From Microgenomates group bacterium (GTDB lineage: Bacteria; Patescibacteriota; Microgenomatia; PFEM01; JBNASD01): a DNA stretch of 64,000 nucleotides. The position numbers were made by a program, and so were the translations under genes. The stretch is taken from contig JBNASD010000001.1 of the NCBI GenBank assembly GCA_049720225.1, positions 15,162 to 79,161 of the forward strand. Reading direction: 5' to 3'. The stretch's first letter is position 1. Each line of letters opens with the position of its first letter. Under the pieces are notes generated by a model, which saw nothing but the letters and a program-made list of their open reading frames with translations, did no database searches and was not told the origin of the DNA. Positions 14,707-19,837 of the stretch are shown here, piece by piece.

Positions 14707-16084
14707 AAAAATCCCCCATGCTTTGTTGTTTACCGGACCTAAGGGAACAGGAAAAACTTCTACCGCGAGAATTTTGGCTAAATTAATTAATTGTCTTCAA
14801 CCTAAGGAAGACGAGCCCTGCAATCAATGTTCTGCTTGTGAAGAAATAAACAGTGGAGCCAGTTTAGATTTAATTGAAATTGATGCCGCTTCTAATCGAG
14901 GTATTGATGATATTCGTGATTTAAAGGAAAAAATTAAGCTCTCTCCTGTAAATTTGAAATATAAAGTTTATATTATTGATGAAGTTCATATGTTGACAAC
15001 CGAAGCGTTTAATGCCTTACTTAAAACGTTAGAAGAACCACCTTCTCATGCGGTTTTTATTCTCTGTACCACCGAACCAGAAAAAATTCCGGAAACCATT
15101 GTTTCTCGTTGTTTAAAAATAAATTTTCGGAAAGCAAAACCAGAGGAAATAATTAATGCTTTAAAAAGGGCAGTAAAAGGAGAAAAAATTAAAGTAGAAA
15201 AAGGAGTATTAGAGGCAATTGCTTCCTCTGTTGATGGTAGTTTTCGTGATGCCCATAAAATTTTAGAACAATTAGCTTTAGAAGGAAAGGAAATTACTTT
15301 AAAAGAAACAAAGAGAGTTTTAGAACAAACAGAAGATCTATCACCGGAAAAATTGTTAACTTTTATTATTGAAGGAGAGACGAAAAAAGCCCTTCAAGAA
15401 ATAGAAAGAGTAGTAAGCGTTGGGGGAGATATTAACCATTATCTTTTAAGAATGCTTTATTTATTAAGAAGTGGATTGTTAGCGCGAGTAGGAATTGAGG
15501 AAGAAGAAAAAGAGGTATTAAAGCGATTAAATTCTTCACAAATTAAAAGTCTTATTAATTTATTTACCGAAGTAGCCGGGGAAATTCGTTATTCTCCCAT
15601 TCCTCAATTACCGTTAGAAGTAGCGGTAGTGGAGTGGATTGAAAAAGAAAAAAATAAACAAAAAGAGAAAAAAGTTAACCAATTGCCAGAAGAGGACGAA
15701 AAAGATTCTTTTAAAGATTCTCAGAATAAAGATCAACGTCATCCTTTAAGATTAATTGAGACAAAATGGAGTGAAATTTTAACTAAAATAAAACCTAAAA
15801 ATCATTCAGTGGAGGCTCTTTTAAAAGCTGCTCGACCCCACGATTATCGTAATGAATATCTTATTTTAGAAGTTTTTTATAAATTTCATAAAGAACGGTT
15901 AGAAACAGAAAAATGCCGCCGGATAGTCGAGGAAACGATAGAAGAGGTAGTGGGAATACCAGTGAGATTAAGATGTATTTTGGGGGAGAAAAAAGAAATG
16001 AAAAAAGAAATTCCTCAAGAAGAAGTAAATGAAGAAGAAGTAATAAATTTGGCTCAAGAAATTTTTGGTGGTAAAATAGTTTAA
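14606..16084 (+). CDS. dnaX: DNA polymerase III subunit gamma/tau
   Basis: YLKYRPKK, Walker A GPKGTGKTS, DEVHML. 492 aa. Confidence 0.9.
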   Translation: MESTTFYLKYRPKKISELDLTEVRETLQKIAKSKKIPHALLFTGPKGTGKTSTARILAKLINCLQPKEDEPCNQCSACEEINSGASLDLIEIDAASNRGIDDIRDLKEKIKLSPVNLKYKVYIIDEVHMLTTEAFNALLKTLEEPPSHAVFILCTTEPEKIPETIVSRCLKINFRKAKPEEIINALKRAVKGEKIKVEKGVLEAIASSVDGSFRDAHKILEQLALEGKEITLKETKRVLEQTEDLSPEKLLTFIIEGETKKALQEIERVVSVGGDINHYLLRMLYLLRSGLLARVGIEEEEKEVLKRLNSSQIKSLINLFTEVAGEIRYSPIPQLPLEVAVVEWIEKEKNKQKEKKVNQLPEEDEKDSFKDSQNKDQRHPLRLIETKWSEILTKIKPKNHSVEALLKAARPHDYRNEYLILEVFYKFHKERLETEKCRRIVEETIEEVVGIPVRLRCILGEKKEMKKEIPQEEVNEEEVINLAQEIFGGKIV

Positions 16085-16113
16085 ATTATAAAATTAATTA
16101 AAAGGAGGAAAAA

Positions 16114-16395
16114 ATGTTTGATAAATTTCGTCAACAATTAGGTCAATTGGGGGAATTAAAAAAACTTCGCGATCAGGCAATGGCTTTAAAAAGACAATTA
16201 GCCGCCGAAGAAGTGGTGGTTGAGGAGGAAGGAGTAAAAGTGGTAATTACTGGCGACCAACAAATTAAACAATTAGAAATAAAAGGAATTAGTAATCAGG
16301 CTCTCATTGACGTTTTAAATAAAGCAATCAAAAAATCCCAAGAGCTAGCGGCAAAAAAACTTCAAGAGATAGGGGGAGGATTATTAGGAGGATAA
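16114..16395 (+). CDS. ybaB: nucleoid-associated protein YbaB/EbfC
   Basis: 93 aa, typical YbaB. Conserved dnaX-ybaB-recR order. Confidence 0.85.
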   Translation: MFDKFRQQLGQLGELKKLRDQAMALKRQLAAEEVVVEEEGVKVVITGDQQIKQLEIKGISNQALIDVLNKAIKKSQELAAKKLQEIGGGLLGG

Positions 16396-16437
16396 AAAAT
16401 TTAAAAAGCTTCTTTTAAAATCAATTACTTCTTCGTT

Positions 16438-17073
16438 TTGTTTAAAAATGATAAAATTAATTTTATGATTTTACCCAAAGCCATTCGAAAGTTAATGGAG
16501 TCTTTTGAAAAATTGCCGGGAATTGGACCAAAAACTGCCGCTCGATTAACTTTTTATTTACTTCATCTTCCCCAAAAGCAATTAGAAGAATTTGCCCAAT
16601 CTCTTTTGGATTTAAAGAAAAATACTGTTTTATGTTCAATTTGCTATAATGTTTCTGAGACTGATCCTTGTCCAATTTGTAGTGATGTTAATCGGGACAA
16701 AGGAACAATTTGTGTCGTTGAACAACCATTAGATGTTTTAGCAATTGAGAAAGCAGGGAAGTATAAAGGGGTTTATCATGTTTTACATGGGGTAATTAAT
16801 CCGTTAGAGAATATTGGGCCAGACGAGCTTTATATTAATCAATTGTTAGAGCGGTTACGAGTTGATGGGTTACGGGTTAAAGAAGTAATTTTGGCAACTA
16901 ATCCAACGATGGAAGGAGAAGCAACGGCGATGTATCTTAAAAATCAATTTAAAATTTTAAATTTAAAATTTAAAATTACCCGGCTGGGCCAAGGTTTACC
17001 AACAGGAGGGGATTTAGAATATGCCGATGAAATGACTTTATCGCAAGCGCTTGAAGGAAGGAGGGAATATTAA
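16438..17073 (+). CDS. recR: recombination protein RecR
   Basis: HhH LPGIGPKTAARL, the C4 zinc finger CSICYNVSETDPCPIC and a Toprim domain. The true start may be the ATG at ~16465. Confidence 0.9.
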   Translation: MFKNDKINFMILPKAIRKLMESFEKLPGIGPKTAARLTFYLLHLPQKQLEEFAQSLLDLKKNTVLCSICYNVSETDPCPICSDVNRDKGTICVVEQPLDVLAIEKAGKYKGVYHVLHGVINPLENIGPDELYINQLLERLRVDGLRVKEVILATNPTMEGEATAMYLKNQFKILNLKFKITRLGQGLPTGGDLEYADEMTLSQALEGRREY

Positions 17074-17552
17074 TGAAAGCGCAAAGCGCAAAGCTCAAAG
17101 CTCAAAACTTAAAAAAATTTATTCCGCCACCACCGCCACCATTTGAAACTTTACAACAACCAAAAAACCCAATTGAGGAGCCCTTTTTCCCTTCTTCAGC
17201 AGTTTCCTCACCCGAGGCAGATAGTCAAGCGCAAAAATTAGCCGAAATGAAAAAAGCAGATGAGGAGAAAAGTCGGCAGTTAGCCAAAAAAATTATTGAA
17301 GAATTAGAGCAAGAAATTGCCAAATGGCGAAAAATTAGGGAAGAGCAACTAAAAGCGCGTCGCCAGCCACCAGAGCAACAAGGCAGTCAAGAAAAAATGG
17401 AGGGAGAAGAAAAACAAAATCAATTACCCCCTCTTCAAGAACCAACGACTAAACCTAAACGAGGATTATTTTTTGGTTTTTGGGGTCGGCGAATCAAATC
17501 CGCCCAACAACAATCCCAACCAGAAAAGGTAGGAAGGAGGGTGGGAGGATAA
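17073..17552 (+). CDS. hypothetical Pro/Gln-rich low-complexity protein
   Basis: 159 aa. Its ATG overlaps the recR TAA (TAATG). It starts with a 7-mer x4 repeat (AAAGCGC/AAAGCTC) encoding KAQSAKLKAQ, then a PPPPPP run and a coiled-coil-like middle. Confidence 0.4.
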   Translation: MKAQSAKLKAQNLKKFIPPPPPPFETLQQPKNPIEEPFFPSSAVSSPEADSQAQKLAEMKKADEEKSRQLAKKIIEELEQEIAKWRKIREEQLKARRQPPEQQGSQEKMEGEEKQNQLPPLQEPTTKPKRGLFFGFWGRRIKSAQQQSQPEKVGRRVGG

Positions 17553-18415
17553 TGGAATTTTCAGAAGACGATTTATCGCCATCTTCTTTGATAGTTGACC
17601 CTAATTCTATACCAAGGCAGGGGAGTGGACAATTACTTGAAGAAAGATGTAGAGAAAATGAAATAGGAGAATACATTCCTGTATGTTATGATTTAGAAAA
17701 ATATTTTAAACTTCTTAGGGAAAGTAAAACTTATAAAAAAATTTTAGAAAAAAGAAAAAGTTCATTAAGAGAAAAAAGTAAAGAAGAAGGAAGTTTAGTA
17801 TCAGATGAAGAGATAGAAGCTGCCTTTTGGCAAACAGAAGAATTTAAACAGTTTTTTTGGGATTTTAATGAATACGTGATTCATTTAGGATACGATGAAG
17901 GTTTATATCCTCCTGAATTTAGAGAACTTTTGGAAAAATATATTGAAGCAGTTCATGACTGCTTCAATGCTGCTCAAAGTGGGAATCCTGATTTATTAAA
18001 AGAAAAAGATCTAGAAAGAAGTAGACTTCATGATGAAACAGCAAGAGCTTTGTTAAAAAGCGGAAGATTTCCTGATGAAGTTTGTCAAATAATTGAAAAA
18101 GCTTTCGGAGAAACTAATCCTTTAACTGCTAACAATATTAAAGAGTTTTTAGCAAGAATATTAGTAAGAGCATTTTTGGTAGATATGGGAGAGGATTACA
18201 TAGAATCAGCTCGCCAATCTGACCTTCTTAGAAAACTTAGGGTAATAGAAAATGAATGGGCAAGAAGGGAACTTGAAGCTGAATTTTTTGAAATGATGAA
18301 ATCTTTAGAAAAATTTCCACCAGAGGAAATAAAATTAATTCGTGAAAAATTTTGCCAAGCAAATAATAATAAAGTAACTTGGAGAAAAAGAGAAGAATTT
18401 TCAAAACCTAAATGA
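17552..18415 (+). CDS. hypothetical acidic cytoplasmic protein (287 aa)
   Basis: ATG overlaps the upstream TAA (TAATG) and a strong AGGAAGGAGGGTGGGAGG Shine-Dalgarno precedes it. Arg codons are ~18 AGA/AGG versus 2 CGN, unlike the neighbouring cysS/recR (mixed). No family recognised. Confidence 0.5.
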   Translation: MEFSEDDLSPSSLIVDPNSIPRQGSGQLLEERCRENEIGEYIPVCYDLEKYFKLLRESKTYKKILEKRKSSLREKSKEEGSLVSDEEIEAAFWQTEEFKQFFWDFNEYVIHLGYDEGLYPPEFRELLEKYIEAVHDCFNAAQSGNPDLLKEKDLERSRLHDETARALLKSGRFPDEVCQIIEKAFGETNPLTANNIKEFLARILVRAFLVDMGEDYIESARQSDLLRKLRVIENEWARRELEAEFFEMMKSLEKFPPEEIKLIREKFCQANNNKVTWRKREEFSKPK

Positions 18416-18430
18416 TAATAAAATTAAATA

Positions 18431-19837
18431 ATGATTAAACTTTACAACACCCTAACCCAAAAAAAAGAAATCTTTAAGCCAATTAAAAAAGGGGAAGTGG
18501 GAATTTATTCCTGTGGACCAACAGTTTATTGGAATCAGCATATTGGTCATATGTATGCTTATACCCAGTGGGATGTTTTGGTGCGCTTTTTAAGATGGAT
18601 GGGATATAAAGTGAAATGGGTGATGAATATTACTGACGTTGGTCATTTAACCTCCGATGCCGATACTGGAGAAGATAAAATGGAAAAGGGAGCTAAAAGG
18701 GAGGGATTAACTGTTTGGCAGTTAGCGGAGAAATATATTGCTCAATTTTTGGAAAGCTTAGAATTGTTAAATATTTCTCGTCCTGACGTTTTATGTCGAG
18801 CAACAGAGCATATTTCCCAACAGATTGAATTAATTAAAAAAATCGAAAAACGTGGTTTTACTTACAAGACGAAAATTGGTTTAGTTTTTGATACCTCAAA
18901 ATTTCCTGATTATCCAAAATTTGCTCGGTTAAATTTAAAAAAACAACTTCCTGGAGCTCGTTTAGAGGTAGATCCGGAGAAAAAATCTCCTTGGGATTTT
19001 TATTTATGGATTTATGGGCGACCAAACCATATTATGCAGTGGGATTCCCCATGGGGAAGGGGATTTCCTGGTTGGCATATTGAATGCACGGCGATGTCAA
19101 CTTATTATTTAGGAGAAAAATTTGATATTCATACTGGCGGAAAAGAACATATTCCTATTCATCATACTAATGAAATTGCTCAAGGATACGGGGCCTTTGG
19201 TCGGCAAACGGCTAATTTTTGGCTTCATAATGATTGGTTAAGATTAAAAGGGGAAAAGATGAGTAAAAGTAAAGGGAATATTTATACAATTCAAGATTTG
19301 GTTAAAAAAGGTTTTCACCCATTAGCTTTTCGTTATTTAGTATTAACTTCTCATTACCGAGGTGGATTAGATTTTGATTGGGAGAATTTAAAAGGAGCCC
19401 AAACAGCTTATTTTAGACTGATTGATTTTGTAAAAAGTTGGCAAGAAAAAAGTGAAAAAGAAAGCAAGAAAGAAGTTAAGAAAGAGAAAATAAAAAATGA
19501 ACACTTTAGAAAAAAATTTATTACTAAATTAAGTGATGATTTAAATATCCCCGAAGGGTTAGCAGTAGTTTGGGAATTAGTAAAAGCAGATCTACCAGAA
19601 AAAAATAAATTAGAATTAATTATTGATTTTGATAAAGTTTTAGGATTAAATTTAATTAAGGAAGCAAAAAAAGAAATTGCTATACCCTTAAAGATTAAGA
19701 AATTATTAGAAAAACGGGAAAAGTTTCGCCAAGAAAAAAAATGGAAAGAGGCAGATTTAATTCGCAAACAAATAGAAAAAGAAGGCTGGCGGGTAGAAGA
19801 TACCCCTGAGGGGGTAAAAATTAAAAAACTTGGTTAA
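18431..19837 (+). CDS. cysS: cysteinyl-tRNA synthetase
   Basis: Class I HIGH (NQHIGHMYA) and KMSKS motifs. 468 aa. Confidence 0.9.
   Translation: MIKLYNTLTQKKEIFKPIKKGEVGIYSCGPTVYWNQHIGHMYAYTQWDVLVRFLRWMGYKVKWVMNITDVGHLTSDADTGEDKMEKGAKREGLTVWQLAEKYIAQFLESLELLNISRPDVLCRATEHISQQIELIKKIEKRGFTYKTKIGLVFDTSKFPDYPKFARLNLKKQLPGARLEVDPEKKSPWDFYLWIYGRPNHIMQWDSPWGRGFPGWHIECTAMSTYYLGEKFDIHTGGKEHIPIHHTNEIAQGYGAFGRQTANFWLHNDWLRLKGEKMSKSKGNIYTIQDLVKKGFHPLAFRYLVLTSHYRGGLDFDWENLKGAQTAYFRLIDFVKSWQEKSEKESKKEVKKEKIKNEHFRKKFITKLSDDLNIPEGLAVVWELVKADLPEKNKLELIIDFDKVLGLNLIKEAKKEIAIPLKIKKLLEKREKFRQEKKWKEADLIRKQIEKEGWRVEDTPEGVKIKKLG

What the first reader, a model, noticed from the sequence alone, without database searches (positions are those of the whole stretch)
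17073..18415. Two-gene module translationally coupled to recR, second gene with foreign-like codon usage
The universally conserved dnaX-ybaB-recR operon is extended by two ORFs whose starts overlap the preceding stops (TAATG twice). ORF1 is a low-complexity Pro/Gln-rich coiled-coil protein that begins with a (AAAGCGC/AAAGCTC)x4 tandem repeat, which is slippage-prone and could act as a phase-variation switch. ORF2 (287 aa, acidic) uses AGA/AGG for ~18 of 20 Arg codons, whereas recR and cysS next door use mixed CGN/AGR. That points to horizontal acquisition. No known domains. A pair made of a disordered partner plus an acidic globular protein, hitch-hiking on a DNA-repair operon, is a candidate for a small accessory system (for example anti-defence, a DNA-mimic, or immunity).
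Basis: seen in the sequence. Interest (0 to 1): 0.55.

Follow-up and report, generated by a model that had tools for sequence, protein, structure and literature searches.

The report
Core gene plus swappable passenger gene
Downstream of recR in this Microgenomates (CPR) genome sit a lineage-specific core gene and, after it, a fast-evolving passenger gene of unknown function; the passenger occupies a slot that is empty or holds toxin/defence-type or other unrelated genes in relatives, so the two are not a dedicated two-gene system.

Summary
The sequence observations hold: two TAATG stop/start overlaps, a real heptamer repeat at the start of ORF1, 19 of 21 Arg codons as AGR in ORF2, and no known domains.

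- **ORF1 (17073-17552)** is a conserved Microgenomates-specific small basic protein. It lies between recR and cysS in every related locus examined, with or without ORF2. Its last codons (GRRVGG) spell a Shine-Dalgarno sequence that couples translation of whichever gene follows.
- **ORF2 (17552-18415)** belongs to an uncharacterised all-alpha family found in candidate phyla radiation (CPR) bacteria (177 representative clusters). It has no Pfam, NCBIfam, PADLOC, PHROG or solved-structure match.
- **The slot.** Long-form ORF2 homologues sit only in the ORF1-to-cysS slot. In other relatives the slot is empty or holds antitoxin+Fic, VapBC, a possibly phosphoribosyltransferase (PRTase)-like protein, or a pyridoxal-phosphate enzyme.
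- **The closest relative** (about 87% DNA identity) carries different cargo, and homology ends exactly at the ORF1 stop.
- **ORF2 evolution.** ORF2 is the strongest codon-usage outlier among 68 genes in the window. Its divergence does not track host divergence.

ORF2 is therefore best read as replaceable cargo. Phase variation, a DNA mimic and an obligate ORF1-ORF2 pair are not supported. ORF2's biochemical function remains unknown.

The parts
16438..17073 (+). recR, the left core flank. Its 3' end (17056-17065, GGAAGGAGGG, encoding EGRRE) is the Shine-Dalgarno sequence for ORF1.
   Evidence: Pfam RecR_HhH/ZnF/Toprim_4/RecR_C; junction sequences
17073..17552 (+). ORF1: a Microgenomates-specific small basic protein (159 aa, pI 9.8). 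It has a short N-terminal helix, a long central helix 47-97, and a conserved C-terminal tail KPKRGLF-GFWGRRIKSAQQQSQPE-xx-GRRVGG. It is a fixed member of the recR-cysS interval.
   Evidence: 29 homologues at 37-85% identity; found between recR and cysS in every locus that shows both flanks; AF2 model
17076..17106 (+). Imperfect heptamer tandem repeat (AAAGCGC x2, AAAGCTC x2, then a partial unit) encoding KAQSAKLKAQ. It is real, but the unit number is the same in the closest relative.
   Evidence: TRF; uniqueness and simulations, and truncation to 10 or 26 aa on a +/-7 nt slip; L029 comparison
17532..17548 (+). GGAAGGAGGGTGGGAGG: the last codons of ORF1 (GRRVGG), which double as the Shine-Dalgarno sequence for the next gene (here ORF2).
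   Evidence: The same purine-rich end abuts the start of cysS, ORF2, a putative Fic antitoxin or the PRTase-like gene in L001, L003, L004, L006, L012, L016, L029 and L030. In L008, L013, L014 and L015 the ORF1 end also overlaps or abuts the cysS start, but the purine-rich sequence is degenerate.
17552..18415 (+). ORF2: a 287-aa all-alpha cytoplasmic protein, the long form of an uncharacterised CPR family. Conserved polar residues include Y130, D153, R156, S157, H160, R202, R206, D215, S219, D224 and R227. It is variable cargo in the ORF1-to-cysS slot.
18416..18430 (+). 15-nt AT-rich spacer with no Shine-Dalgarno sequence in front of cysS. cysS has lost the coupling to ORF1 that it has in relatives with an empty slot.
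18431..19837 (+). cysS, the right core flank of the slot.
   Evidence: Pfam tRNA-synt_1e, E=1.5e-90; synteny

Best explanation
The interval holds two unrelated things.

1. ORF1 is a vertically inherited, Microgenomates-specific core gene fixed between recR and cysS. It encodes a small basic protein with one long helix and a conserved aromatic/basic C-terminal tail. Its last codons (GRRVGG = GGAAGGAGGGTGGGAGG) form a Shine-Dalgarno sequence and its stop overlaps the next start. Whichever gene lies downstream is therefore translated by coupling (inferred from sequence).

2. ORF2 is a replaceable passenger in the slot between ORF1 and cysS. It is the long form of an uncharacterised all-alpha family found in CPR bacteria. 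It carries a conserved constellation of Tyr, His, Arg, Asp and Ser residues, which suggests a ligand-binding or catalytic pocket (inferred). In this genome ORF2 most likely arrived by replacement of earlier cargo, through recombination in the conserved flanks, from another Microgenomates lineage (inferred). It is expressed by coupling to ORF1, and cysS behind it is left without its usual Shine-Dalgarno sequence.

ORF2's role is probably accessory (conflict or stress related), not DNA repair. Its biochemistry is unknown.
For: **ORF1 is core.** It has 29 homologues. It is present after recR and/or before cysS in all Microgenomates-type loci examined (L001-L025, L029, L030), including divergent forms that were identified partly or wholly by position rather than by profile.

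**Coupling port.** The junction sequences are.

**ORF2 is cargo.**
- The slot is empty in L003, L008, L013, L014 and L015.
- It holds an ORF2 homologue in L001, L002, L012 and L017-L025.
- It holds a putative antitoxin plus Fic (PADLOC SoFic, E=1.8e-23) in L004-L007 and L016.
- It holds VapB+PIN in L006, L007 and L010.
- It holds a possibly PRTase-like 395-aa protein in L029 and L030.
- It holds a PALP (pyridoxal-phosphate) enzyme in L016.

**Closest relative.** L029 is 86-88% identical in DNA through dnaX, ybaB, recR and ORF1. Homology stops at window position 17550, the ORF1 stop.

**Composition.** ORF2 ranks 1 of 68 for synonymous codon deviation (z=6.7) and has the lowest GC3. ORF2 homologues have lower GC3 than all their neighbours in 6 of 6 other genomes.

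**Divergence.** ORF2 pairwise identity stays at 37-47% whether CysS identity is 50% or 84% (Spearman -0.24, not significant). The only exception is the near-identical pair L001/L012, at 92% for ORF2 against 96% for CysS.

**Recombination footprint.** A footprint of cargo entry in the cysS 5' end is seen in L006.

**Family.** The profile search found 177 representative clusters. Short forms lie in unrelated contexts. The AF2 model is confident (pLDDT 81, pTM 0.79) and all-alpha.
Against: - Every long-form ORF2 homologue with visible context sits in this same slot, across lineages whose CysS is only 50-56% identical. That also fits an ancestral resident gene that evolves fast and is often lost.
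- Lower GC3 in ORF2 homologues of all genomes could reflect low expression rather than transfer.
- The other cargo types (Fic, VapBC, PRTase-like) diverge roughly in step with their hosts, so turnover in the slot is not rapid.
- No mobility gene, repeat or att-like site flanks ORF2.
- The right-hand breakpoint against L029 could not be seen, because that contig ends inside its cargo gene.
Confidence: 0.6

Rival explanations
1. ORF2 is an ancestral, vertically inherited Microgenomates gene at a fixed position upstream of cysS. It is lowly expressed and fast evolving, which would explain the AT-rich, AGR-biased codons. It was simply lost or displaced in several lineages, and there was no lateral acquisition in this genome.
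For: All long-form homologues with visible context lie in the same slot. ORF2 homologues are AT3-richer than their neighbours in every genome examined, so this is a family trait. Distant short-form relatives show that the family is old within CPR. No mobility signatures were found.
Against: The closest relative (about 87% DNA identity) has an unrelated gene in the slot, with a sharp breakpoint at the ORF1 stop. That gene is shared with the more distant L030. So either the window's lineage or L029's lineage underwent replacement. ORF2 identity (37-47%) is decoupled from CysS identity (50-84%). The L001/L012 pair suggests only about a 2-fold rate excess, which would predict about 68% identity, not 42%, at 84% CysS identity. 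At z=6.7, ORF2's codon deviation is the largest of 68 genes.
Confidence: 0.25
2. ORF2 is a single-gene conflict effector (defence or toxin-like enzyme) of a new family. It would be one of several defence/TA cargos that populate a Microgenomates hotspot anchored by ORF1 and cysS.
For: The slot carries Fic (SoFic/PDC-S04-like), putative Fic antitoxins containing a [S/N]xxxEG motif (read by eye), and VapBC in relatives. ORF2 shows patchy presence, deviant composition and divergence decoupled from the host. Its invariant or near-invariant polar residues (Y130, H160, R202, R206, D215) suggest a catalytic or binding site.
Against: There is no PADLOC hit for ORF2 or for 40 family members. No toxin motif is present: no Fic motif (hhalign probability 0.1%), and R156-x3-H160 is not the HEPN Rx4-6H motif. 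No cognate antitoxin or partner is conserved. Short forms sit among envelope or translation genes, not in islands. The slot also holds non-defence genes (a PALP enzyme).
Confidence: 0.12
3. ORF1+ORF2 would be a dedicated two-gene accessory system (anti-defence, DNA mimic or immunity) riding on a repair operon and switched on and off by slippage of the heptamer repeat.
For: The two genes are translationally coupled. The heptamer array is non-random, and a +/-1 unit slip truncates ORF1 to 10 or 26 aa. ORF2 is acidic (pI 5.0).
Against: ORF1 occurs without ORF2 in at least 9 distinct loci, and the ORF2 family occurs in loci with no ORF1 homologue. The repeat unit number is unchanged in L029 despite about 13% DNA divergence. 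Only 2+2 perfect copies are present. A frameshift could also disturb the downstream coupling that leads towards essential cysS. No viral homologues were found.
Confidence: 0.03

Closest known systems
Core-gene-flanked accessory/defence hotspots, such as those in the E. coli defence island repertoire (PMC10121019) and the core defence hotspots of Pseudomonas aeruginosa (PMC10250203)
   Same: There is a fixed chromosomal position between conserved core genes (ORF1 and cysS). Its content differs among relatives and includes TA/defence-type genes (a Fic of SoFic type, and VapBC). Homology breaks sharply at the core-gene edges.
   Different: The slot is tiny, holding 0-4 genes. It sits inside a tightly packed housekeeping cluster of a CPR bacterium. 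The cargo is inserted flush with the stop codon of ORF1 and inherits its translational coupling. No integrase or mobile-element hallmarks were seen. Turnover appears slow, because the cargo diverges with the host in several lineages.
UPF0262 (Pfam PF06793 / NCBIfam NF002769, a family annotated only as an uncharacterised/hypothetical protein)
   Same: This is the only recurring weak sequence hit. ORF2 residues 122-168 and P0057 residues 95-140 align to the same part of the profile (best E=1.7e-4 to 2e-4).
   Different: The hits are below the curated thresholds (12.8-21.8 bits against cut-offs of 25 and 162). Only 2 of 40 family members hit, and only about 45 residues align. UPF0262 itself has no known function, and no paper was found for it.
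Fic/Doc with a small upstream antitoxin (class I Fic toxin-antitoxin; the class assignment is from my own knowledge)
   Same: It occupies the same slot in L004-L007 and L016. It is also helical (my knowledge of the Fic fold) and is also coupled to ORF1.
   Different: ORF2 lacks the HPFxxGNGR motif that is invariant in the slot's Fic proteins. Profile-profile comparison gives 0.1% probability. There is no Pfam Fic hit.
CPR-enriched protein families of unknown function (Meheust et al. 2019, PMC6744442)
   Same: Both ORF1 and ORF2 belong to families seen here only in CPR-type genomes and lack any annotation.
   Different: I did not check whether these particular families are among those catalogued in that paper.

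Membership tests
Type II toxin-antitoxin pair (ORF1+ORF2) | The two genes co-occur as an obligate adjacent pair | tested here: not met
   ORF1 occurs without ORF2 in L003-L010, L013-L016, L029 and L030. Short-form ORF2 relatives occur in loci with no ORF1 homologue (L026, L027, L031, L032).
Type II toxin-antitoxin pair (ORF1+ORF2) | A recognisable toxin or antitoxin domain | tested here: not met
   No Pfam, NCBIfam or PADLOC family for either protein.
Phase-variable contingency locus (simple-sequence repeat switch) | The repeat tract varies in unit number between close relatives or between reads | tested here: not met
   L029 has the same tract length, with point substitutions only. Read-level variation could not be tested with these tools.
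Phase-variable contingency locus (simple-sequence repeat switch) | A long, perfect repeat tract whose unit is not a multiple of 3 nt, inside or upstream of a coding sequence | tested here: inconclusive
   The 7-nt unit lies in the coding sequence, is non-random, and a slip truncates ORF1. But there are only 4.4 copies in two variants (2+2 perfect).
DNA-mimic or anti-defence protein | Small, strongly acidic protein carried by phages or mobile elements | tested here: not met
   ORF2 is 287 aa, pI 5.0, net charge about -14. No relative was found in IMG/VR, no BFVD fold match had E<0.09, and there is no PHROG hit.
Known anti-phage defence systems (PADLOC) | A match to a defence-system protein model | tested here: not met
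   No significant hit for ORF1, ORF2 or 40 family members.
Fic/Doc | The HxFx[D/E]GNGRxxR active-site motif and the Fic domain | tested here: not met
   The motif is absent from ORF2. hhalign against the slot's Fic proteins gives probability 0.1%.
HEPN | An Rx4-6H motif in a four-helix bundle | tested here: not met
Core-gene-flanked variable hotspot | Conserved flanking core genes with different gene content between them in relatives | tested here: met
   There are six content states between ORF1 and cysS across about 20 distinct loci.
Core-gene-flanked variable hotspot | A sharp homology breakpoint at the edge of the flanking gene between close relatives | tested here: met
   Homology between the window and L029 ends at the ORF1 stop codon. 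The right edge is not visible because the contig ends.
Core-gene-flanked variable hotspot | Cargo compositionally atypical or phylogenetically incongruent with the host | tested here: met
   Codon-usage z=6.7, rank 1 of 68. ORF2 identity is decoupled from CysS identity.
UPF0262 | A score above the curated family threshold | tested here: not met
   Best scores are 21.8 bits against 25 (Pfam) and 12.8 bits against 162 (NCBIfam). A remote relationship is not excluded.

The most novel reading that the evidence does not exclude
ORF1's Shine-Dalgarno-encoding tail would act as a fixed translational docking port in Microgenomates. The slot behind it would be a miniature conflict-gene hotspot. The ORF2 family would then be a previously unrecognised CPR-specific single-gene defence or toxin-like enzyme with a new all-alpha fold, exchanged between lineages by flank-mediated recombination.
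Probability: 0.12. Interest if true: 0.6.

Novelty: new member of a known kind. Interest (0 to 1): 0.33.

Why it matters
CPR bacteria have tiny, streamlined genomes, and little is known about how they gain and swap accessory genes. This locus gives a concrete small example. The insertion point sits inside a housekeeping cluster and is defined to the nucleotide: the stop codon of a lineage-specific core gene. Unrelated cargos alternate there (an uncharacterised all-alpha family, Fic and VapBC modules, a possibly PRTase-like protein). The locus also flags two protein families with no annotation and, for ORF2, a confident predicted fold with no solved counterpart. These could be targets for structural or functional work. 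It does not reveal a new system with a known mechanism.

Tried and rejected
**Domain and family searches.** I ran Pfam, NCBIfam, PADLOC and PHROGs on ORF1, ORF2 and two homologues, and Pfam, NCBIfam and PADLOC on 40 family members. The only result was sub-threshold UPF0262 hits.

**Solved structures by sequence.** Profiles of both families gave nothing below E=0.09.

**Fold searches of the ORF2 model.**
- Foldseek against PDB found nothing below E=0.18.
- BFVD found nothing below E=0.09.
- The AlphaFold database libraries were unavailable.

**Degenerate Fic idea.** Rejected by hhalign.

**HEPN idea.** Rejected on motif spacing.

**Cys-His-Asp peptidase idea.** I considered that ORF2 might act on the GG terminus of ORF1. 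I dropped it because C45 is not conserved in the short forms.

**Other negative or failed searches.**
- No ORF2 relatives in viral contigs.
- No Rfam match in 16000-19000.
- Promoter-like and terminator-like sites are no more frequent than in shuffles, and the only + strand terminator-like site between 13.5 and 22.4 kb is a weak one inside cysS.
- The third word-indexed protein search, run with the broad alignment, returned only 6 hits because of its candidate cap.
- The broad alignment was too divergent for a locus scan, so I used the 12-sequence alignment instead.
- No literature was found on UPF0262.
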